A stretch of 64,000 nt of DNA from Elainellaceae cyanobacterium (GCA_050330955.1 JBHJHJ010000084.1:323-64322), one strand, 5' to 3'. Counted from the first letter of the stretch, positions 26,843 to 35,783 are shown. Notes: generated from the sequence alone by a model not told the origin. A program made the numbers and translations.

Positions 26843-27742
26843 ATGTTAGGTTCTGACGCGATCGTCAATCGTCTTCAAGTAAGCAGTGGCCGACAAAGTA
26901 AAGCTGTGGTTCAAGAGTTTACCGTTACTTTCTGGGGTGTGAGAGGCAGTATCCCCACACCAGGAATGAATACTGTTCGCTACGGTGGCAACACCGCCTG
27001 CGTCGAACTGAACGTAGCGGGAGAGAAACTGATCTTTGATGGTGGAACAGGTTTACGGGTGCTCGGCAAGCATCTGCAGCACGTAGATCCAGTCAACGCG
27101 CACATCTTTTTTACCCACACCCACTGGGATAGAATTCAAGGCTTTCCATTCTTTATCCCTGCGTTTCGCGACTCCAACTGTTTTCACATCTATGGTGCCA
27201 CTGGCTTGACCGGAGCGTCTATCAAGCAGCGTCTGATGGACCAGATGATTCTGCCTCATTTTCCCGTCTCCCTACGGGCAATGGGAGCAGAGCTACACTT
27301 TCACAATATTGAAGCTGGCGCCACTATTCCCATTAAGGATATTTGTGTAGAAACGCTTCCGCTGAACCAGATGAACGGCGCTCTAGGCTATCGGATCAGT
27401 TGGCAAGACCTTTCCGTGGTCTACGCCACAGATACAGCCCAAATTCTTCAGCAGAAAGATAGCTTAGCCTACCTGGCTCATGATGCCGACCTACTGATCA
27501 TTGACGCGGTATACCTCGATCATGCGTACTTTGACCCGATGCAGTCTGCAGCCTCCCGGACATTCGCCCAGTGGCAGGTCTGTGTTGAGGCAGCCCTAAG
27601 TGCAGGAGCCGGGCAAATTCTTGTGTTTCACCACGACCCGACCCACGAAGACGATTTCTTGGACTGTGTGGAAACCGAAATGCGGTCGACCTACTCGAAT
27701 GTAAAGCTTGCTAGGGAGGGAATGAGCCTCAGCCTGCTCTAG
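26843..27742 (+). CDS. MBL-fold metallo-hydrolase
   Basis: HxHxD motif FFTHTHWDRIQGFPFF and a C-terminal VFHHDP segment. 299 aa. Confidence 0.8.
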   Translation: MLGSDAIVNRLQVSSGRQSKAVVQEFTVTFWGVRGSIPTPGMNTVRYGGNTACVELNVAGEKLIFDGGTGLRVLGKHLQHVDPVNAHIFFTHTHWDRIQGFPFFIPAFRDSNCFHIYGATGLTGASIKQRLMDQMILPHFPVSLRAMGAELHFHNIEAGATIPIKDICVETLPLNQMNGALGYRISWQDLSVVYATDTAQILQQKDSLAYLAHDADLLIIDAVYLDHAYFDPMQSAASRTFAQWQVCVEAALSAGAGQILVFHHDPTHEDDFLDCVETEMRSTYSNVKLAREGMSLSLL

Positions 27743-27844
27743 CCGATGGGGATGGATCCGCCAATCTATTTGGGACGTCTCACAGACTAGCGCGAAATTG
27801 ATCTACCATAGGCGCTGTGACTGCAGTCTCGGCGGGAAATTGAA

Positions 27845-28723
27845 TTGGACAATCAGGATGGCTTGACGCTTTTCGGCGGCGCTCTATCGCACCTTAAGCA
27901 GCGTTTGGAGGGTGCAGTTCAGGACATTGGTCAAGATTTGACCGCAGTGTCCGATGGCGTCTCTTCTACCGTTGCCGATGCGGTAGCGGCAACCACTGAG
28001 CGAGCAATGCAATCTCTGGACTATACCGTCACTCAAGCAGAGGGCGTCACGAGCAGTATCGCTCAGGAGCTGTGGCGCACCATTGAAGCTGATTTTGAGG
28101 GGTGGCTTCAAGGCCATCCGCTACTGCTATGGCTCTTAATGCATCCGCTGATTACCCTTGGCCTTTCCTTTACGGTGGTTGTGCTGGTGTGGGGCCTCGT
28201 TCAGGCCATGGCGCAGCTTGCGCAGCGGGCTTGGATAGTGCTATTGAATGTTCCACTCTACCTAGCGCGACTAGCGCTGATGGGCCTAAACCGTTTTAGA
28301 CACTGGACTACAGTTCAGATCGCCAATTGGTACCGGGCAGCGATCGCATCTCGCCCAAGTTCCCAGCTTGATGGGGCTGACGATGGCCAAGCTCAAGGGC
28401 GTCAGTCTCCTCAAGACTGCGATGCTGGAGCTGCCCGCGACGTCAGTCCTCACCCAGCTGAGCTAATGGCCGCTTTGGTAGCCGCTTCTAACGGCTCGGA
28501 CCCTAGAACTGCTGCGGACTGGGCTGTCACGATAGAGTCCGCTTACGCAGGCCACCTATCCGCTCCCCTCGATTTGATTGAGATTCGGAAGACGCAGCCG
28601 CTTCAAGGGAGTAGCGATCGCGAATTAATTGAGGCGCTAAGGCGGTTGGAGCACTTGACACAGGCGCAGACTCGAACGCTTCAGCACTTGATCCAGCTGC
28701 TGGAAGCGCGGACGGCCTCGTAA
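27845..28723 (+). CDS. Hypothetical membrane protein, 292 aa
   Basis: TTG start, uncertain. Two hydrophobic helices (LLLWLLMHPLITLGLSFTVVVLVWGLV, WIVLLNVPLYLARLALMGL). Confidence 0.55.
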   Translation: MDNQDGLTLFGGALSHLKQRLEGAVQDIGQDLTAVSDGVSSTVADAVAATTERAMQSLDYTVTQAEGVTSSIAQELWRTIEADFEGWLQGHPLLLWLLMHPLITLGLSFTVVVLVWGLVQAMAQLAQRAWIVLLNVPLYLARLALMGLNRFRHWTTVQIANWYRAAIASRPSSQLDGADDGQAQGRQSPQDCDAGAARDVSPHPAELMAALVAASNGSDPRTAADWAVTIESAYAGHLSAPLDLIEIRKTQPLQGSSDRELIEALRRLEHLTQAQTRTLQHLIQLLEARTAS

Positions 28724-28867
28724 ACTACGTGACTTGGCTCCAGGATGCTTCGTTCAAGCTCCAAAAAGGTTCTAAGCAAAGTGGCCGACACTATATACTT
28801 GGAGACCTGAACCTAACCCACAGCTCAAATCTACATTTACAGAGCGACGCGCTCTGTCTAGTCCGTC

Positions 28868-29071
28868 ATGTCTCCAATCTTGCTGATTGCAGCGCTTGTC
28901 ATTTCCTTTTTCATTTTCACTTGGCTCATTCGCGTTGTGCGGGCAACCGTTAGCACAGCGATTACAATTGCCCTCATCGCTCTTGCCTTACAGCTTCTGT
29001 TTGGCATCGGCCCGCAGGATCTTTGGCGTCAGTTTGTCGCGCTTTGGCAGAGCCTACTAGGTCCGAGCTAA
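28868..29071 (+). CDS. Small membrane protein, 67 aa
   Basis: Two predicted TM helices (ILLIAALVISFFIFTWLI, AITIALIALALQLLFGI). Confidence 0.5.
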   Translation: MSPILLIAALVISFFIFTWLIRVVRATVSTAITIALIALALQLLFGIGPQDLWRQFVALWQSLLGPS

Positions 29072-29098
29072 TCGACCTGCGCTCTGAAATCAGAAACT

Positions 29099-29602
29099 TT
29101 ACAATGAGGCATCACCTGCCAGCCGCTTGAGCACCTGCGCTATCTCCGGCGGAATCTGGCGCATAATTTTCCCTTTTTCTCGGTCGACGACTGCCAAAGA
29201 AACTTGGGCTGTGGCGTAAGCCTCCACGGCGATCATACCGGGGTCGAGGGGCTGAATCTTATAATCCCAGTTGAGCCGCACCCCGTCTAGGTTCTTCATC
29301 TGGGTTCTGACCAGGGCCGCTGCTCCTAAGGGGAGCGAGCAGTGGTAGCGAATTGACAGGTCAACCACCGGCAGATCGCACCCCAGGGCAACCAAATTAG
29401 TAAAATCGACCCCCAGCGATCGCAGATATTCCACCCGAGCCTCCTCCATCCAGGCGATGTAGCTCCCGTGCCAGGCAATTCCAGCGTAGTCTGTGTGGTG
29501 CGGCTGGACACGAATCGGATAGTCGAACCAGGCCTGTTCTGCCGCAGTGGACGCGGGTTGGATCGCATGGGCCGAGTGTTCGTTAGGAAGCTGGGGTCGC
29601 AT
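29099..29602 (-). CDS. 4HBT-fold acyl-CoA thioesterase (YbgC / DHNA-CoA thioesterase-like)
   Basis: FDYPIRVQPHHTDYAGIAWHGSYIAWMEEARVEYLRSLG, the hot-dog thioesterase N-terminal motif. Confidence 0.8.
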   Translation of the reverse strand: MRPQLPNEHSAHAIQPASTAAEQAWFDYPIRVQPHHTDYAGIAWHGSYIAWMEEARVEYLRSLGVDFTNLVALGCDLPVVDLSIRYHCSLPLGAAALVRTQMKNLDGVRLNWDYKIQPLDPGMIAVEAYATAQVSLAVVDREKGKIMRQIPPEIAQVLKRLAGDASL

Positions 29603-29840
29603 AGCCGAAAATCCTTTTTGGTTCTAGGGGTTAAGTTCCCGATACAATGACGAATGCCGTATGATCGATTGAACATGTTCGACTGAACCTAATCGATCGA
29701 ACGGAGAACACGCCTCTGTAGGTCCACCACGTTTGATGATGCAGGTTCTCCTGACCTATGATAGCTCTACGCTATGGCAGAGCTATGGCCGGCCACTAGC
29801 CATTGGCCACTAATTGAACTTCACGTAGGATGCGCTCACT

Positions 29841-32066
29841 GTGACTTCTAATCGAGCCAAGCTACAGGTGCTGATTGATACGCTTGATTCAGCGCTCGAA
29901 GATCCGTCAACGCCTGAGGCGAAGGCGCAGCTGCAGTCGGCGATCGCCCAAACCCGGCGCTACTTGGCCGATTTACAGCGCGAGGGAGCCGATTCACCCG
30001 AGGCCAGCGCTCAGGAAGTTCTGCAGGCGGTGGTCCAAGAGATGGGCTACCTGCGAACCAACATGATTCAGCCGCTGCGCGAGGAGATCACCCAGCTTCA
30101 CGACGAGCGGAAGACCCTAGCGAACAGCGTTCGCCAGCTGCAGCAACAGCAGCAGCACATCAGAGAGTCTCAACAGCAGCAGATGCTCCGGGACTTTATG
30201 CAGTCCCTAATGGGTCGACTGCAGGATCAAATGACGACCCAGGTGGTGCAAGCGATTTCACTCATGCAGCCCCAGCTACCCACCGGCGGCGTGAATGGCG
30301 AGGAGTTCTCACAGCTGAGTCCAGCGGAGCAGGCCGAGCAGCTGCGGCTGCTCCAGGCAACCTCAAACGAGCTTATGCTCAAAATGGACGCCACGATGCG
30401 GGTTGTGTTCGACTCACTACAAACCACCGTCGACAGCTATCGAGACTCCCTAGGCCAGGGCCTTGAAAAAATGCATAGCCTCGGACAGCAGGGCGAAGCG
30501 CTGTTCACGGCCCTAGTAAACCGTCTAGCCAGTCAGCTCGGGCGCGAAGCCTCCCAATATCTGAGCCAATCGCTCCACGATGGGGAGTCGTTTCAGCTTG
30601 GGGGTACGGGGATCGGGGGAGACCGACTGCTGCCTACCGTTGGACCAGCCGCTTTTTCTGAGACGGGCAACGCGGCTAATGACACGCCTGGCGCTGGGAC
30701 AGCGGCCGAGCTTCCCGAAGAAGCCCTATCCGCTGAGCAAATTGACCAGCTTCTGCGTCAAAACCTATCCCAGTCGTTGACAGAACCGAGTGTTGAGGCC
30801 GGCCCTGCGCCATCCCCACAGGAGGCCCCGCCCAGCCAGCAGACAGATAGCCCAGAAACAGACGAGCTGATTGACCAAATACTGCACGAGCTAGAGGCTG
30901 ACATCGACGCCATTGGCAACAACCTCAATCTCAACCTAGACGAGGTTGACTTGGCCCCGCCCTCGCCTGAAGCCGATGAGGTCACGGCCGATGAGGTCAC
31001 AGCCGATGACGATTTGGAGGCGATCGCCCTGTTTGAGCTGGCGGAAGATGGGGTGATAGTCCACGAGTCCGCCAATCTGAAAGCCCAGCCCCACGCGCAG
31101 ACTGGGCCAGAGCCAGAGCCAGATAGCCCCGCCGAGGATGAGCGCAATAGGCCCACTCCAGAAGGCAGCGCCAGTCCAACCTCCAGCGCTGAAATCGCCG
31201 CATTCTACGCGGAGTTTCGGGCCGCAACCGAAATGGATTCTGACCAGACCGCTGATAGCCCCGCGGCAGAACCTGCGGCGGAGCCCACCGCGAAGAGAGC
31301 CATTGACGAGGAGAGCCGTAATCTAGCCCCTTCTACCGTAAAGGCTTCAGACGATTCGGGCGATTCGGGCAATTCGGGCAATTCAGACGCTCAGATAGAC
31401 ACCATCAGCCGCCTGTCCGATCTTATCGATCCGAACCTGCTGATTCAGATGGGGACTGAGGGTATTTCCGGCACAAATAGCTCATTTACCATGGCCTCTC
31501 TCGGAGAAGATCTGTTGGCCACCGGCAGAGATAGCGCCAAGCCATCCGTTGACCTCGACATCGACCTCGACCAGCTCACAGCCGATCTATCCCGCATTGA
31601 GGCCCGCGATGGAGGGATTTGGGAGGAATCTCTGACGGCCTCCGAACCCTTCGAGCCGCCGTTTCAATTGCCCCCTGATTCAGAAGCCCAGCAAGACAAT
31701 CCTGACTTGGAGACCGTCGTACCCCCGCAAGCCTCTGCTCCCAGTGAAGCTCTTTTAGAAGATACGTCCCCAAAAGACGCGCTGCCAGAAGACGCCCTGC
31801 CAGAAGACGCCCTGCCAGAAGATTTAGCACGCCATGACGAGCTAGAGCCATTCCCCGATGAGGACTCGACAATCGACGAAATTGCGGCCCTATTTGCGGC
31901 CCTTGAGAACACTGAGGATGGCCCATCGGAGCGAGCTACCATCGCTCAGCAAACCCTCGCAGATTTGCTAAAGCCGGCCAGTGGGGGGAGCTTCTCAACC
32001 CCGCCAGACGACAGCGCCGATAGGGACGTGAACACCGAGCCAGAAGATGACGAAAAAAAAAAGTAG
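29841..32066 (+). CDS. Acidic coiled-coil / low-complexity protein, 741 aa
   Basis: GTG start. Gln/Leu-rich N-terminal coiled coil followed by a Glu/Asp/Pro/Ala-rich tail with short tandem repeats (DEVTA x2, GDSGNSGNS, DALPE x3). It ends EDDEKKK inside an A10 run. Confidence 0.75.
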   Translation: MTSNRAKLQVLIDTLDSALEDPSTPEAKAQLQSAIAQTRRYLADLQREGADSPEASAQEVLQAVVQEMGYLRTNMIQPLREEITQLHDERKTLANSVRQLQQQQQHIRESQQQQMLRDFMQSLMGRLQDQMTTQVVQAISLMQPQLPTGGVNGEEFSQLSPAEQAEQLRLLQATSNELMLKMDATMRVVFDSLQTTVDSYRDSLGQGLEKMHSLGQQGEALFTALVNRLASQLGREASQYLSQSLHDGESFQLGGTGIGGDRLLPTVGPAAFSETGNAANDTPGAGTAAELPEEALSAEQIDQLLRQNLSQSLTEPSVEAGPAPSPQEAPPSQQTDSPETDELIDQILHELEADIDAIGNNLNLNLDEVDLAPPSPEADEVTADEVTADDDLEAIALFELAEDGVIVHESANLKAQPHAQTGPEPEPDSPAEDERNRPTPEGSASPTSSAEIAAFYAEFRAATEMDSDQTADSPAAEPAAEPTAKRAIDEESRNLAPSTVKASDDSGDSGNSGNSDAQIDTISRLSDLIDPNLLIQMGTEGISGTNSSFTMASLGEDLLATGRDSAKPSVDLDIDLDQLTADLSRIEARDGGIWEESLTASEPFEPPFQLPPDSEAQQDNPDLETVVPPQASAPSEALLEDTSPKDALPEDALPEDALPEDLARHDELEPFPDEDSTIDEIAALFAALENTEDGPSERATIAQQTLADLLKPASGGSFSTPPDDSADRDVNTEPEDDEKKK
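31776..31820 (+). repeat. 15-nt tandem repeat x3 inside the CDS (encodes DALPE x3)
   Basis: gacgcgctgccagaa, gacgccctgccagaa, gacgccctgccagaa. Confidence 0.85.
32053..32062 (+). other. A10 homopolymer containing a dnaX-type A AAA AAG slippery heptamer (32057-32063), immediately before the TAG stop at 32064-32066
   Basis: Read directly: gac gaa aaa aaa aag tag. The -1 frame (cga aaa aaa aaa gta ggt ..) is open from 32051 into the next ORF. Confidence 0.9.
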
Positions 32067-32299
32067 GTCCCATTAGCTGGACGATTCGAGGGGCAAACGA
32101 TGCCAGCAGCAAGCGGGATGGGCTGCTGCTCCCTCCGGGACGACCGCTCTTTCCTGGGCTATCCAGCCTGTCCCAGCAGACCAGTCAAGCGGAGGCGCAG
32201 TCTTCTGAAAGGCCGTCTGGCCCGCCATCGCCCCCGGCTGAGGGCAGGCCCCAGTCGTGGTTCCTAGGGTTAGATATCGGCACGGTAGGCCTGTCCGCC

Positions 32300-33640
32300 G
32301 TGCTGCTCAACCCGCAAACCGGCCAGAGGGTGCCGCTGTTCTGGCAGCAGTCAGACGGAGGACCGCGCTGGCTGCGCTGGCCCATCGACATTGCTATTGA
32401 TCCAAGCTGGCCCCAGACAACCGATGGTGCGCCGGCCCCTTCGGCAGAAGCCGCCATCTTGTGTCAGCTCAAGCCAGCCCTAGCGCTCCCGCTGCGGCGT
32501 GGTTTAGCCGGGACGCGAGACCACTCTCCCCTACTCGAACCGGTTTACAAGCCGCTGACCCAGATTCTAAGCACGCTCAAGCCGGAGGTCCCCGAAGCGG
32601 ATCAACCGGACCCGTCAGACCTGCTTTGGCGCTGCTGCGGACTCGGTCTTGCGGCGGACCAATTTGAAAGGGCAATGGCAAACCTGCTGGGCGTTGGGGT
32701 CAGCTATCCAGGGGGATGGTCCAGTCAGTATCAGACCAATCTTCAGAACGCCATTTTGGGCGGTGGGCTAGTGTCAGAGCCCAGCAAAATTCACTTTATT
32801 GAAGAAACGACCGCCGCCGTTCTCGCTTGTCTGCGGTCTGGCGATGACGACGATAGACCGGAGCAATTTAGCTCCCCTACCGATGGCCTGCCCCGTCCGC
32901 CGCTGCACGCCGTTGACCCCGAGGGCCTAGCCTTTGCAATTAGCGCTGGCGCCAGCACTACCGAGGTGGCCTTGGTAGACTTAGCGGCCTTAGTCCGTAA
33001 TCCTCGGGCGGCAGCCTCATCTCAAAGCTTTGCCTACGGCGGACAAGGCCTCGACCAGGATATTCTCTACTACATCCTCTACCCCCAGCTTCAGGCCTCC
33101 CCCCTGGCGGAAATTGAGCAGCTATTGGGGATTCTGCAGCTTGACAGCTTGGCTCAACCGCAGCTGGGTCAGCCCGACAGCGACAAGCGACGGCGACTCC
33201 ACCTGCGGCTGTGCAGCTCAGCGCCAGGCCGGCAGCTGCTAGCGATCGCTCAGCGGATTAAACACGAGCTGCAGGTGCAGCCCCGCGTGACCTATACCCT
33301 CGCCCAGCACCGAGGCCAAGTGACCCAGGACGAACTGGGCCACCAAATTCTGCTGCCCTACATCCGCACCCTCAACCACCAGACTCAGTCCTTATTCCGT
33401 TCGACGGCTGTTTCGCCGCGAGCCGTCTCCCACGTGATTTGCTCCGGCGGAATTGCCTCAATGCGGGTGGTAGAGCTGTGGGCGCGGCGCTGCTTTACGG
33501 AGGCCGAGCTGCTGCGATCGCCTACCGTGGCGGCCCTGGATGCGGAGGTCGACCTGCCCGCGTCGGCTTGGTTGGGCAGTCAGGTGGGCTATGGCCTCGC
33601 CAGCTTGCCCCTCGTCATCCCAGACTTAGGGTCACCGTGA
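32300..33640 (+). CDS. Hsp70/actin-fold ATPase-like protein (5' end unresolved)
   Basis: 32300 is the first canonical start (GTG). The same frame is open from 32051 and encodes WFLGLDIGTVGLSAV (phosphate-1-like) upstream of 32300. Later segments are AISAGASTTEVALVDL (phosphate-2-like) and VICSGGIASMRV (adenosine-motif-like). Confidence 0.7.
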   Translation: MLLNPQTGQRVPLFWQQSDGGPRWLRWPIDIAIDPSWPQTTDGAPAPSAEAAILCQLKPALALPLRRGLAGTRDHSPLLEPVYKPLTQILSTLKPEVPEADQPDPSDLLWRCCGLGLAADQFERAMANLLGVGVSYPGGWSSQYQTNLQNAILGGGLVSEPSKIHFIEETTAAVLACLRSGDDDDRPEQFSSPTDGLPRPPLHAVDPEGLAFAISAGASTTEVALVDLAALVRNPRAAASSQSFAYGGQGLDQDILYYILYPQLQASPLAEIEQLLGILQLDSLAQPQLGQPDSDKRRRLHLRLCSSAPGRQLLAIAQRIKHELQVQPRVTYTLAQHRGQVTQDELGHQILLPYIRTLNHQTQSLFRSTAVSPRAVSHVICSGGIASMRVVELWARRCFTEAELLRSPTVAALDAEVDLPASAWLGSQVGYGLASLPLVIPDLGSP

Positions 33641-35783
33641 CGGTGGTCCCCCGCTCCGCTGCGGATTGAATCTTGAGGGTGCCGCCGTGGGCTTCGATGA
33701 TGCGCTTCGTGATGGCCAGGCCTAACCCATTGCCTGAGGACTTGGTGGTGAAGAAGGGCTGGGTAAGCTTTGGCAGCACATCGGGGGGAATGGGATCGCC
33801 GCTGTTGTGCACCTGAACCACGGCTTGCCCCAAGGTGACCTCAATCCGCCAGGTCACGGTCGAGCCGGAAGGGCTGGCCTCACAGGCGTTGGTCACCAGG
33901 TTAATAAACACTTGCTTGAGCTTATCGCGATCGCCCGGTACAACAGCGGAAGTCTCTAAGGTGGTGACCAGGTCAATACGCCGGTCCTGGGCCGCAGGCT
34001 GGGGCTGTAGGCTGTCCCGAATCTCCTGGCACAGCGCCACCAAGTCCACAGGCACTGCCTCAAGCTGGGGCTCCTTGGCGTACATCAGAATCTCATTAAG
34101 CAACCGCTGCAGCCGCTCAGACTCCTCCAGCGCCAAGTCCAGCCGGAGCTGCGCCCGCTCGGGCAGGTCCAGCCGCTTAAAGGAGCCGAGCCCCATCATT
34201 ACCGTGGTCAAGGGGTTACGCACTTCATGCACAATCATGGAAGAGAGTTCACCAATTTCCGCCAGCCGAGCGATCGCCGCCTCGGCCTGCTTTCGCTCCG
34301 TCACGTCCCGCGCCAGCGCCAGAATGAGCTGCCGCCCCCCAAACTGAATCAGACCCAGCCGCACCTCAACCGGAAATAGGGTCCCATCCCGCCGTCGATG
34401 CGCGCCCTCTAAGGTTATGGGCCGCCCCGGAGAGAGACGCTGCCACAGCTGAGCCACATCCTCTGCCGTCAGGTTCATCTGCACGTCCGGGACTGACAGC
34501 TGCAGCAATTCCTGACGGGCGTACCCCAAATTGAAGCAGGCCTGCTGGTTGACATCGACGAAGTGCCCGTTGTGGTCAACAACGAACAGGGCATCCACCG
34601 CCTGGGCAATCAGGGCCCGGAATCGATTCTCACTTTCCCGCAGCGCCTCCTCGGCCTGCTTCCGCTCGGTGATATCGTTGATCACAGACAACATGCAGAC
34701 CTGGCCATCAAGGGTAATTTGCTCTGCCGAGTAGAGCGCCGTGCGAATTTGCCCCTCCGCGGTCCGAAACTGACATTCCCGGTTGCGCAACATCCCGTCC
34801 CGCTGCAGTGCTGTCGTCATGGCAACGCGATCGCTAGGGCTGAGCCAAAACCCCAGCTCTTCCGTCGTGCGGCCAATGGCCTCCTCGTGGGTCAGCCCTA
34901 CCACCCGCAAGAATGTCTCATTCACCTCCAGCAGCCGTCCGTCTGAAAGCGTGCTGATTACAACGGCGTCTGGGCTAGAGCAAAAGGCCTTGGAAAACTT
35001 CTCCTCAGAAATTCGCAGCTCGTCTTCCATTTGCTGACGATGGGCGATCGCTTCGGCAATTTGGTTCACCATCTGCACAAACGCCGCCATTACTTCCCCC
35101 AGCTCGTCCCGGCGCTGGGGATTGACGGAAGGGAGCGGCGGCACCACCACGGCTTTTTGATCCTGGCTGAGGGCCTGCCCCACCCGCCGCAGATCTCGCC
35201 GTAGTCCAATAATGGGATGAATTAAGAGCCGGTTGAGCACAAACATCGTTGCGATGGTGACAAAAATGGAAATGATGACAACTAAACCAGCAATGCGAGC
35301 AATGAATTCTAGAAACTCGCTGCGAATGTCAGCGTCATGGCGAATCACCACAAGATAGCTGTCGTCTAGCGGCGGCATCTCCCAAACCGCGTCGTAGCGC
35401 CCCAGACGCCGGTTCAATTGCTCGGTGCGCCCTCGGTCAATCTGCGCAAAGGTCAAGCGGGGGGGCTCCCCAAAATCGTCTACCAGTTCACCCGTCGTGC
35501 GATATAGCGCCCCGCCTAAGATCACGTCATCTTGGGCCTCGCGGAGCACCTTCAGAATAGCGGCATCCTCCTCAGCCGACGTTGCCTCCAGCAAGCCCGA
35601 CACCCGCGCCGCCGATATCATTGTCAAGTAATGCAGCAGCTCTCGCTCTCGCCGAAAGACGGAGGGGATAAGGATAATAACCTCAATCACAACAATACTG
35701 GCGAATACCCACAGCACGATTCGCCGTGACAGTCGGGCGTTGAAGAGCGCTGACAAGCGACGCGCCATGCAGACACCTCCCAA
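33615..35783 (-). CDS. Membrane sensor histidine kinase (HAMP, two PAS domains, HisKA, HATPase)
   Basis: Two TM helices. PAS segments SEEKFSKAFCSSPDAVVIS and SENRFRALIAQAVDALFVVD. H-box MIVHEVRNPLTTV, N-box VFINLVTNACEAS, GNGLGLAITKRIIEAHGG. The 3' end overlaps the convergent ORF by 26 nt. Confidence 0.9.
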   Translation of the reverse strand: MGGVCMARRLSALFNARLSRRIVLWVFASIVVIEVIILIPSVFRRERELLHYLTMISAARVSGLLEATSAEEDAAILKVLREAQDDVILGGALYRTTGELVDDFGEPPRLTFAQIDRGRTEQLNRRLGRYDAVWEMPPLDDSYLVVIRHDADIRSEFLEFIARIAGLVVIISIFVTIATMFVLNRLLIHPIIGLRRDLRRVGQALSQDQKAVVVPPLPSVNPQRRDELGEVMAAFVQMVNQIAEAIAHRQQMEDELRISEEKFSKAFCSSPDAVVISTLSDGRLLEVNETFLRVVGLTHEEAIGRTTEELGFWLSPSDRVAMTTALQRDGMLRNRECQFRTAEGQIRTALYSAEQITLDGQVCMLSVINDITERKQAEEALRESENRFRALIAQAVDALFVVDHNGHFVDVNQQACFNLGYARQELLQLSVPDVQMNLTAEDVAQLWQRLSPGRPITLEGAHRRRDGTLFPVEVRLGLIQFGGRQLILALARDVTERKQAEAAIARLAEIGELSSMIVHEVRNPLTTVMMGLGSFKRLDLPERAQLRLDLALEESERLQRLLNEILMYAKEPQLEAVPVDLVALCQEIRDSLQPQPAAQDRRIDLVTTLETSAVVPGDRDKLKQVFINLVTNACEASPSGSTVTWRIEVTLGQAVVQVHNSGDPIPPDVLPKLTQPFFTTKSSGNGLGLAITKRIIEAHGGTLKIQSAAERGTTVTVTLSLG

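What the first reader, a model, noticed from the sequence alone, without database searches (positions are those of the whole stretch)
32048..32300. dnaX-type slippery site (A AAA AAG inside an A10 run) at a stop codon, with the -1 frame open into the next gene
Seen: the upstream ORF ends gaa aaa aaa aag TAG, with the A run at 32053-32062. The -1 frame has a TGA at 32048-32050 and then no stop until 33640. Between 32051 and 32300 that frame has no ATG, GTG or TTG. It nevertheless encodes a Pro/Ser/Gln-rich linker and then WFLGLDIGTVGLSAV, the phosphate-1 motif an Hsp70/actin-fold ATPase needs.

Established: A AAA AAG is the E. coli dnaX -1 frameshift heptamer. A-runs of 9 or more also promote transcriptional slippage.

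Inference, three possibilities:
(a) Programmed -1 frameshifting or RNA polymerase slippage yields a fusion protein of about 1270 aa alongside the 741-aa product.
(b) A homopolymer length error or phase-variable tract is present; an A11 allele would fuse the frames.
(c) The ATPase starts at a rare ATT (32072, 32084) or CTG (32123, 32126) codon.

I found no convincing stimulatory hairpin within 10 nt of the site. The nearest 7-bp stem is at 32104-32128.
Basis: partly seen in the sequence, partly recalled or inferred. Interest (0 to 1): 0.65.

Follow-up and report, generated by a model that had tools for sequence, protein, structure and literature searches.

The report
Conserved A10 tract fuses two genes
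A run of ten A's at the end of a cyanobacterial gene is kept in thirteen distant relatives whatever the reading-frame relation of the two flanking coding parts, so it is very probably a programmed slippage site that lets one locus make both a short scaffold-like protein and a long fusion carrying an Hsp70-like ATPase domain.

Summary
The 741-aa ORF (29841-32066) ends gaa aaa aaa aag TAG, with A10 at 32053-32062. The -1 frame is open from 32051 to 33640 and has no ATG, GTG or TTG before the GLDIGT motif.

This is not an error or a chance run. Five other species of the same clade, with saturated synonymous sites, all have A10-GTAG. Right after the run the -1 frame shows a coding pattern (135 synonymous against 38 nonsynonymous codon differences; 7/148 and 12/146 in the other frames).

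Seven more distant relatives also carry the tract: A10 in six and A11 in one. The ATPase part lies in the -1 frame in four of them, in +1 in two, and in frame in Anabaena cylindrica. Most of the 150 best of 380 representative homologues are single 1100-2700 aa ORFs with the ATPase part at the C-terminal end; those inspected start with the same N-terminal domain.

The downstream part folds as an Hsp70 nucleotide-binding domain (pLDDT 86).

Best reading: programmed recoding at the tract gives a 741-aa product and a 1266-aa fusion. RNA polymerase slippage, as in Thermus dnaX, is more likely than E. coli dnaX-type -1 ribosomal frameshifting. No raw RNA reads were available to settle this. It is a new member of a known kind.

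The parts
29841..32066 (+). Zero-frame ORF of 741 aa (GTG start). It has a conserved N-terminal helical domain of about 250 aa, then a long acidic low-complexity linker, and ends EDDEKKK*. This is the short isoform.
   Evidence: The N-terminus MTSNRAKLQ aligns with orthologues. There are 58 homologues, most with a KKK or KKN motif at or near the C-terminus. No Pfam, NCBIfam or PDB match.
32053..32062 (+). A10 tract, the proposed slippage site.
   Evidence: A10 in 12 of 13 lineages and A11 in one. It is the only A/T run of 8 or more in the window and in each of the 11 related loci checked for it. Given the (E/Q)KKK peptide, P = 0.057 per lineage.
32057..32063 (+). A AAA AAG heptamer in phase with the zero frame. 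It would be the -1 ribosomal slip site if the shift is translational.
   Evidence: It is identical in the six loci of the window clade.
32064..32066 (+). TAG stop of the zero frame, directly after the heptamer.
   Evidence: It is conserved in all six loci of the window clade.
32048..32050 (+). TGA in the -1 frame two bases before the tract. Entry into the -1 frame must therefore occur within the tract.
   Evidence: It has the same position in L002, L003, L004 and L015.
32063..32257 (+). Linker read in the -1 frame, with no canonical start codon. It contains the conserved peptides GPISWTIRG (32066-32092) and LPPGRPLFP (32129-32155).
   Evidence: Variable columns by codon position are 2/2/7 and 2/1/9. 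Pairwise codon differences are 135 synonymous to 38 nonsynonymous in this frame, against 7/148 and 12/146 in the other two.
32258..33640 (+). Hsp70 nucleotide-binding-domain-like ATPase part in the -1 frame. The phosphate-1 motif WFLGLDIGTVG lies at 32258-32290. There is no substrate-binding domain.
   Evidence: AF2 model pLDDT 86.3, pTM 0.88. Foldseek against PDB hits Ssz1, BiP and DnaK NBDs at E about 1e-12, probability 1.0. dN/dS is 0.12-0.22 among six species. 380 representative homologues.
32067..32082 (+). Small hairpin GUCC-N8-GGAC, four bases after the heptamer. It is a possible weak stimulator, or a by-product of the Gly-Pro..Trp-Thr codons.
   Evidence: It appears in the minimum-free-energy fold of 4 of 6 clade loci. 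There is one compensatory change (L004) and two broken pairs (L001, L002). No consistent counterpart appears in the distant loci.
29733..29762 (+). The only sigma-70-like promoter match near the locus, upstream of the 741-aa ORF. No promoter-like or plus-strand terminator-like site was found between the two coding parts.
   Evidence: consensus scan only, weak evidence.

Best explanation
The two ORFs are one gene with a programmed frame change at the A10 tract.

Standard decoding gives a 741-aa protein: an N-terminal helical domain plus an acidic linker, ending KKK*. A fraction of products continue in the -1 frame to give a 1266-aa fusion that adds an Hsp70-NBD-like ATPase domain.

The most likely mechanism is RNA polymerase slippage on the tract, with a probability of about 0.55 within this explanation. 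A11 transcripts encode the fusion. A9 transcripts encode the short form with a 4-5 aa tail. This is the logic of Thermus thermophilus dnaX, with the default product inverted. A ribosomal -1 shift on A AAA AAG, or ribosome sliding on poly(A), may contribute or may even dominate (about 0.3).

Shown: the tract, the frame arrangement, coding selection in the -1 frame from the first codon after the run, family-wide conservation of the tract, and the existence of single-ORF fusions.

Inferred: that slippage actually occurs, its level, and which enzyme slips.
For: (1) All six species of the clade have exactly A10-GTAG. Their synonymous sites are saturated (pS 0.6-0.8). The chance of an unbroken run given the peptide is 0.057 per lineage.

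(2) The -1 frame immediately after the run shows a coding substitution pattern. The window, L003, L011, L013 and L014 have no canonical start between the run and the phosphate-1 motif.

(3) The ATPase ORF is intact and under purifying selection.

(4) An exhaustive HMM search finds 380 representatives. Most of the 150 listed are 1100-2700 aa ORFs with the ATPase part at the C-terminal end, and many begin with an MTSQKDQIQxLI-like N-terminus. The two inspected in full (P0066, P0078) carry the same N-domain.

(5) The tract is A10 in L011, L012, L013, L014, L015 and L017, and A11 in L016. The ATPase is in the -1, +1 or 0 frame in these loci.

(6) L013 and L014 are close relatives that differ by a 2-nt indel at the edge of the tract. 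This reverses the frame relation, yet both keep A10.

(7) No conserved SD-like element or strong downstream structure was found.

(8) The run begins at all three codon phases in different lineages.

(9) Precedents from the literature. A9 in Thermus dnaX gives two products, and Nostoc IS elements have A8-A10 tracts (PMC1088944). Two-ORF dnaX genes with A10 are ascribed to transcriptional realignment (PMC3711429). The RNA-DNA hybrid is 9-10 bp long (PMC5009743).

(10) A metatranscriptome contig (X8, 4801 nt) spans both parts of the L001/L010 orthologue.
Against: There is no direct evidence of slippage. No RNA run holds the window. For the L010 orthologue only assembled RNA contigs were available. 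These show A10 as the major form and cannot show minority A11 or A9 species. DNA carry-over in those libraries cannot be excluded.

The heptamer A AAA AAG followed by a stop is itself a good ribosomal -1 site. A small hairpin follows it in most clade members.

Three clade members have an ATG (MPPGR) 19-23 codons after the run, so they could also make a free ATPase.

Most single-ORF family members have no KK motif in the 160 residues before the ATPase, so two isoforms are not universal in the family. The function of both parts is unknown.
Confidence: 0.8

Rival explanations
1. This is purely translational, E. coli dnaX-type -1 programmed ribosomal frameshifting. tRNA-Lys slips on A AAA AAG (32057-32063), helped by the adjacent TAG and the small downstream hairpin. 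The extra A's are incidental or provide a second overlapping slip site. Non-directional ribosome sliding on poly(A) is a variant of this idea.
For: The in-phase heptamer and the adjacent stop are conserved in six of six clade loci. A hairpin GUCC..GGAC lies four bases downstream in 4 of 6, with one compensatory change. All -1 lineages end the run with a slippery heptamer: A AAA AAG, A AAA AAA or A AAA AAC. Ribosomes slide on iterated AAA codons in E. coli (PMC4363877).
Against: The same A10 tract is kept where the ATPase is in the +1 frame (L012, L013) and where it is in frame (L017). Run length rather than the heptamer is conserved; the third base of the preceding GAA/CAA codon is A in 6 of 6 against about 33% expected. 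No conserved SD-like element lies upstream. The hairpin is weak, has a broken pair in two loci, has no consistent counterpart in distant loci, and fold z-scores are unremarkable.
Confidence: 0.25
2. There is no recoding. The locus encodes two separate proteins, and the ATPase starts at a non-canonical codon (ATT 32072 or 32084, CTG 32123 or 32126) or by termination-reinitiation.
For: Three orthologues have an ATG at the position of Leu 32129 (MPPGR). In another clade the ATPase homologue has a conserved ATG-led N-terminus (MPAHSEQPE..) about 16 residues before the motif, which looks like an independent gene.
Against: Coding-type conservation starts at the first codon after the run (VGPISWTI), upstream of every candidate start. 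The Met of the three orthologues aligns with Leu in the other three. The proposed ATT and CTG codons lie inside conserved peptide, not at its edge. L011, L013 and L014 also lack any canonical start. Single-ORF fusions show that the covalent link is the family norm.
Confidence: 0.06
3. This is a mutational hot spot. The gene is an ancestrally fused gene broken by replication slippage in the homopolymer. It is either a decaying pseudogene or a phase-variable contingency locus switched off in the sampled populations.
For: Homopolymers mutate fast. One relative has A11 (L016). Fused in-frame versions exist.
Against: A replication slip would change the run length, yet out-of-frame and in-frame lineages alike have A10. 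None of the 12 split lineages has a length that restores the frame. The ATPase ORF is intact in all 13 lineages, with dN/dS 0.12-0.22 within the window clade. Independent assemblies of the same species agree.
Confidence: 0.05
4. This is a sequencing or assembly error in a homopolymer, and the true genome has A11 and a single ORF.
For: Homopolymers are error-prone, especially in long-read assemblies.
Against: A10 appears in contigs of four runs for this organism. It also appears in 11 other lineages from Illumina, JGI, ENA and NCBI assemblies.
Confidence: 0.01

Closest known systems
Thermus thermophilus dnaX (tau/gamma by transcriptional slippage on A9)
   Same: A poly-A tract of 9-10 lies inside a cellular, non-mobile gene. 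Heterogeneous mRNAs give a long and a short product that share their N-terminal part. The non-productive frames stop within a few codons of the tract. The in-frame Anabaena form (L017) has exactly this layout.
   Different: In the window the default (templated) product is the short one, and the long one needs slippage. The protein family is unrelated. Slippage has not been demonstrated here.
Two-ORF dnaX genes with A10 reported by Antonov et al. 2013 (PMC3711429)
   Same: Two adjacent ORFs are joined only after a change at an A10 tract, inferred from comparative genomics. Relatives of the same family have a single ORF.
   Different: It is a different gene. Here three frame relations (0, -1, +1) coexist in one family with the tract length held constant.
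E. coli dnaX -1 programmed ribosomal frameshift
   Same: The heptamer A AAA AAG is identical and in phase. Two products share an N-terminus.
   Different: dnaX has an upstream SD-like element and a strong downstream stem-loop, and its shift truncates the protein. Here neither stimulator is conserved, the shift extends the protein, and the tract is 10 A's and is conserved independently of frame.
Shigella mxiE / spa13 and IS-element orfA-orfB fusions by transcriptional slippage (including Nostoc IS with A8-A10; PMC1088944)
   Same: Slippage on a homopolymer fuses two overlapping or adjacent ORFs. The fusion is the minor, regulated product. There is a cyanobacterial precedent for productive poly-A tracts.
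   Different: Those are virulence regulators, secretion components or transposases. This is a chromosomal gene family restricted, as far as named records show, to cyanobacteria, and its function is unknown.
Hsp70 nucleotide-binding domains (DnaK, BiP, Ssz1)
   Same: The predicted fold and the phosphate-1 motif DIGT-G are shared.
   Different: Sequence identity is only 12-15%. No Pfam HSP70 hit was found. There is no substrate-binding domain. The domain is attached to a coiled-coil-like N-domain through a long acidic linker.

Membership tests
Programmed transcriptional slippage (realignment) sites | Homopolymeric A or T run of about 9 or more, the length of the RNA-DNA hybrid | tested here: met
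   A10 at 32053-32062. It is the only such run in 64 kb.
Programmed transcriptional slippage (realignment) sites | The run is conserved among diverged homologues despite synonymous drift, without indels that restore a single frame | tested here: met
   A10 in 12 of 13 lineages and A11 in one. Synonymous sites are saturated. P = 0.057 per lineage by codon usage.
Programmed transcriptional slippage (realignment) sites | ORF layout in which a change of one nucleotide in the mRNA gives a distinct, meaningful product | tested here: met
   An A11 mRNA gives a 1266-aa fusion. An A9 mRNA gives the short form with the tail KKSRSH*.
Programmed transcriptional slippage (realignment) sites | Run-length heterogeneity in RNA but not in DNA | not testable with these tools
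   No RNA run holds the window. For L010 only assembled RNA contigs exist; they show A10 as the major form and drop minor variants.
E. coli dnaX-type -1 programmed ribosomal frameshift | X XXY YYZ heptamer in phase with the zero frame | tested here: met
   A AAA AAG at 32057-32063.
E. coli dnaX-type -1 programmed ribosomal frameshift | Upstream SD-like stimulator about 10 nt before the heptamer | tested here: not met
   The 30 nt upstream in six orthologues share no GGAG-like element at a fixed distance.
E. coli dnaX-type -1 programmed ribosomal frameshift | Stable downstream stem-loop or pseudoknot 5-8 nt after the heptamer | tested here: inconclusive
   Only a 4-6 bp hairpin four bases downstream, present in 4 of 6 clade loci. 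The consensus fold has 6 pairs at -5.45 kcal/mol. z-scores run from -2.1 to +1.7, mostly above -1.2, and distant loci show no consistent counterpart.
E. coli dnaX-type -1 programmed ribosomal frameshift | The same shift direction is needed wherever the signal is conserved | tested here: not met
   The ATPase frame is -1 in 10 lineages, +1 in 2 and 0 in 1, all with the same tract.
Phase-variable contingency locus | Run-length polymorphism between strains or within populations, switching the ORF on and off | tested here: not met
   The length is the same in four samples of this organism and in duplicate assemblies of three other species. No lineage has a frame-restoring length. Raw reads were not available.
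Hsp70/actin-fold ATPase superfamily | Two-lobed NBD fold with the phosphate-1 motif D-x-G-T/S-x-x | tested here: met
   AF2 pLDDT 86.3. Foldseek probability 1.0 to DnaK, BiP and Ssz1 NBDs. Motif GLDIGTVG.
Canonical Hsp70 chaperones (Pfam PF00012) | Score above the Pfam gathering threshold, and a substrate-binding domain | tested here: not met
   No Pfam hit. Only weak HscA matches at E = 1e-3. The 464-aa model consists of the NBD alone.

The most novel reading that the evidence does not exclude
The A10 tract is a frame-independent isoform switch kept across a large cyanobacterial protein family. RNA polymerase slippage on it sets the ratio of a scaffold-only protein to a scaffold-plus-ATPase protein. 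Evolution retunes that ratio by small indels next to the tract. These indels make the long form the default (Anabaena), or make it an A11-dependent product (window clade, L. 'hensonii') or an A9-dependent product (Timaviella), while selection holds the tract at ten.
Probability: 0.45. Interest if true: 0.75.

Novelty: new member of a known kind. Interest (0 to 1): 0.66.

Why it matters
Conserved recoding in cellular, non-mobile bacterial genes is rare. dnaX, prfB, copA and csoS2 are the textbook cases. This would add a widespread cyanobacterial family.

The family offers a natural experiment. The same tract is kept while the templated frame relation changes between 0, -1 and +1. That separates selection on the nucleic-acid signal from selection on the protein.

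It also corrects annotation. Current gene calls for the ATPase part are N-terminally truncated and lack the phosphate-1 motif. Examples are the window GTG 32300 call of 446 aa, P0002, P0006 and P0267 of Leptolyngbya 'hensonii'. The locus should be annotated as one gene with a slippage exception.

Finally, it defines an uncharacterised protein architecture of up to about 2700 aa: a helical N-domain, an acidic disordered linker and an Hsp70-NBD-like ATPase. This architecture has no Pfam or NCBIfam model.

Tried and rejected
1. Direct RNA evidence. No RNA run was found for the window or L007. For L010, four metatranscriptomes are held only as contigs. They show A10 and no indel information.

2. 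Conserved RNA structure downstream. The RNAalifold consensus has six pairs at -5.45 kcal/mol. Single-sequence folds have unremarkable z-scores.

3. A first AF2 model from six sequences was useless (pLDDT 40). It was replaced by a 111-sequence alignment.

4. Pfam, NCBIfam and PDB sequence searches gave nothing for the N-terminal part. For the ATPase part they gave only E = 1e-3 HscA matches and E of about 0.03 Ssz1-type matches.

5. tRNA-Lys complement. There are no tRNA genes in the window, so the single-tRNA-Lys argument for AAG slipperiness could not be tested.

6. I guessed that proteins ending KKKIAP* would have an A8G tract. That was wrong: L014 has A10 followed by T.

7. Literature. I found no report of this family or of its tract. 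Sharma et al. 2011 is not held.

8. DNA of the in-frame fused forms with a KKK motif other than Anabaena (for example P0066 and P0077) could not be fetched.


Full report
OBSERVATION

The sequence is exactly as described. Positions 32052-32066 read gaa aaa aaa aag tag. A10 occupies 32053-32062 and closes the 741-aa ORF 29841..32066. In the -1 frame a TGA lies at 32048-32050. That frame is then open from 32051 to 33640. It has no ATG, GTG or TTG before the motif WFLGLDIGTVG. The first canonical start is GTG 32300, which lies after the motif.

The tract is the only A or T run of 8 or more in the 64 kb window. Only 0.015 A10 runs are expected on one strand from base composition. The window belongs to a stromatolite-mat cyanobacterium. 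Logan contigs of three independent runs (X1, X2, X4) span the tract with no indel, and a short contig of a fourth (X3) also covers it. A homopolymer error is therefore excluded.

THE WINDOW CLADE

A protein search with the -1 frame product found only five relatives. Their loci (L001-L005), with independent assemblies of some of the same species (L006-L010), all show the same gene pair. These are Elainellaceae or unclassified cyanobacterial MAGs where named. All show exactly A10 followed by GTAG.

These six lineages are far apart. ATPase identity is 53-63% and synonymous sites are saturated (pS 0.6-0.8). In these genes AAA is 42% of Lys codons, GAA 39% of Glu and CAA 27% of Gln. Given the peptide (E/Q)KKK, an unbroken run has probability 0.057 per lineage, or about 3e-8 for six. 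The three lysines stand in a region with 1-5 Lys against 65-80 Asp+Glu in the preceding 300 residues.

Directly after the run, the -1 frame encodes V(A)GPISWTI(R/Q)G and, about 20 codons later, (L/M)PPGR(P/R)LFP. In these two blocks the variable alignment columns fall 2/2/7 and 2/1/9 on codon positions 1/2/3. Pairwise codon differences are 135 synonymous against 38 nonsynonymous. In the other two frames they are 7/148 and 12/146. The -1 frame is therefore translated from the first codon after the tract.

Three lineages have an ATG at the M of MPPGR. In the window, L002 and L003 the same column is Leu. The ATPase ORF is intact in all six, with dN/dS of 0.12-0.22. It is not a pseudogene.

THE WIDER FAMILY

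The 741-aa protein has 58 homologues in Leptolyngbyaceae, Elainellaceae and others. Most have a KKK or KKN motif at or near the C-terminus, for example ..KKK*..KKN*..KKKIAP* and ..KKKRSRxKGExxRGFGR*.

An exhaustive profile search with the ATPase part found 380 representatives at 50% clustering. Most of the 150 listed are single ORFs of 1100-2700 aa with the ATPase near the C-terminus, and many begin with an MTSQKDQIQxLI-like N-terminus. The two inspected in full, P0066 and P0078, carry an N-terminus homologous to the window's 741-aa protein. The covalent fusion is thus the common architecture.

Seven further loci were read at the DNA level:
- Leptolyngbya sp. 'hensonii' (L011): gtc-A10-tc taa, ATPase in the -1 frame.
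- L014: ctt-A10-tcg, -1 frame.
- L015: g-A10-c tag, -1 frame.
- L016: g-A11-t ag, -1 frame.
- Timaviella obliquedivisa (L013): ctc-A10-g atc, ATPase in the +1 frame.
- L012: gc-A10-ttc, +1 frame.
- Anabaena cylindrica UHCC 0172 (L017): act g-A10-g gaa, inside one continuous ORF (TEKKKEG). The other two frames stop after about 20 codons.

The tract is therefore A10 in 12 of 13 lineages. It begins at all three codon phases. It is kept whether the ATPase part is in frame 0, -1 or +1.

L013 and L014 are close relatives. They differ by a 2-nt indel at the 3' edge of the tract, which reverses the frame relation, yet both have ten A's. Five split lineages have no canonical start between the tract and the phosphate-1 motif.

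WHAT THE PARTS ARE

The N-terminal protein has a conserved helical domain of about 250 aa, then an acidic, repeat-rich and poorly conserved linker with a few conserved islands. It has no Pfam, NCBIfam or PDB relative.

With a 111-sequence alignment, the ATPase part gives a confident model (pLDDT 86.3, pTM 0.88). The best structural matches are Hsp70 nucleotide-binding domains: Ssz1, BiP and DnaK, at E about 1e-12, probability 1.0 and 12-15% identity. It has no substrate-binding domain and does not reach any Pfam threshold. It is an Hsp70-NBD-like ATPase, not a canonical chaperone.

MECHANISM

The comparative data show that this is one gene read in two frames joined at the tract. I put recoding at about 0.8. 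Which enzyme slips is an inference.

These points favour RNA polymerase slippage:
- The conserved feature is run length, not the heptamer. Ten equals the 9-10 bp RNA-DNA hybrid (PMC5009743).
- The tract is retained where a +1 change is needed and where no change is needed. This fits a signal that produces both A11 and A9 transcripts.
- The tract is independent of codon phase.
- No SD-like element or strong structure is conserved.
- In the window clade, both non-fusion outcomes (A10, and A9 giving ..KKSRSH*) yield essentially the same short protein. This matches Thermus dnaX, where stops lie close by in both alternative frames (PMC1088944).
- Cyanobacterial IS elements with A8-A10 tracts suggest that tracts of this length slip productively in a cyanobacterium, Nostoc.
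- Antonov et al. drew the same inference for two-ORF dnaX genes with A10.

These points favour a ribosomal contribution:
- A AAA AAG is in phase and is followed by a stop in all six clade members.
- A 4-6 bp hairpin lies four bases downstream in four of six, with one compensatory change.
- Ribosome sliding on iterated AAA codons is documented (PMC4363877).

The two mechanisms are not exclusive. My split is roughly 0.55 polymerase and 0.3 ribosome as the main route. No raw RNA reads were available. Assembled metatranscriptome contigs for the L010 species show A10 as the major form and span both parts. This is compatible with co-transcription and with a minority slipped species, but it proves neither.

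REJECTED READINGS

- Sequencing error: rejected.
- Phase variation or decay: a replication slip would change the run length, but split and unsplit forms share A10. No split lineage has a restoring length, and the downstream ORF is under purifying selection.
- Non-canonical initiation: coding conservation starts at the tract, and fusions are the family norm.

COMPARISON AND NOVELTY

The locus works like Thermus dnaX, mxiE and IS-type poly-A slippage. It carries the E. coli dnaX heptamer but lacks that system's stimulators and its direction constraint.

I found no description of this family or tract in the papers searched. It is a new member of a known kind. The unusual feature is one tract conserved across three frame configurations.

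It also exposes systematic mis-annotation. The ATPase calls are truncated and lack the phosphate-1 motif (P0001, P0002, P0006, P0267).

Noticed in passing
window 31781-31834: A short tandem repeat encodes DALPEDALPEDALPED in the acidic linker. Logan contigs of all four runs break or pile up here (depth spike and 34-45 nt contigs). The linker is repeat-rich and hard to assemble. The Anabaena orthologue (L017) has a 100-N scaffold gap in its linker between duplicated segments.
   Followed up: partly
window 33615-33640: The ATPase ORF (ends 33640, + strand) and the convergent PAS/HisKA/HATPase sensor kinase gene (33615..35783, - strand) overlap by 26 nt at their 3' ends. The same neighbour and a similar overlap occur in L002 and L003. 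The other clade members have a Bac_transf sugar transferase downstream instead.
   Followed up: partly
window 32048-32050; L002, L003, L004, L015: A TGA in the ATPase frame sits immediately 5' of the tract in five of the ten -1 lineages (gaTGAc or tcTGAa). The only place to enter the open frame is therefore the tract itself. This could simply reflect Asp-Asp codons.
   Followed up: partly
L012 7208-7292; proteins P0031, P0033, P0035, P0037, P0039, P0040, P0051, P0056: In one subfamily the zero frame continues past KKK for 15-25 codons into a basic tail ending in a conserved RGFGR motif. The short isoform there has its own conserved C-terminal peptide. In L014 the same tail sits in the +1 frame and is interrupted by a stop.
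   Followed up: partly
proteins P0244-P0300: A large clade, including Coleofasciculus, has ATPase homologues of about 620-660 aa. They start with a conserved MPAHSEQPE(V)D about 16 residues before WYLGID, which looks like an independent gene with a real ATG.
   Followed up: no
L003 548-1822: An IS605-type OrfB/TnpB (Cas12f-like) gene lies about 1 kb upstream of the orthologous locus in the 279-kb MAG contig. It is absent from the window.
   Followed up: no
window 26843-29602; L005 101-3091: The upstream neighbourhood is conserved with L005: a Lactamase_B_2 protein, a protein of about 270-290 aa, a small protein of 67-74 aa, and a divergently oriented 4HBT thioesterase (29099..29602, - strand). 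The thioesterase and the small protein also occur in L003 and L004.
   Followed up: no
L016 5300-5315: This is the single A11 lineage. The downstream frame has a GTG overlapping the zero-frame stop (aaa TAGTG). Termination-reinitiation is a possible alternative there. Here the run lies 247 codons before the ATPase motif.
   Followed up: no
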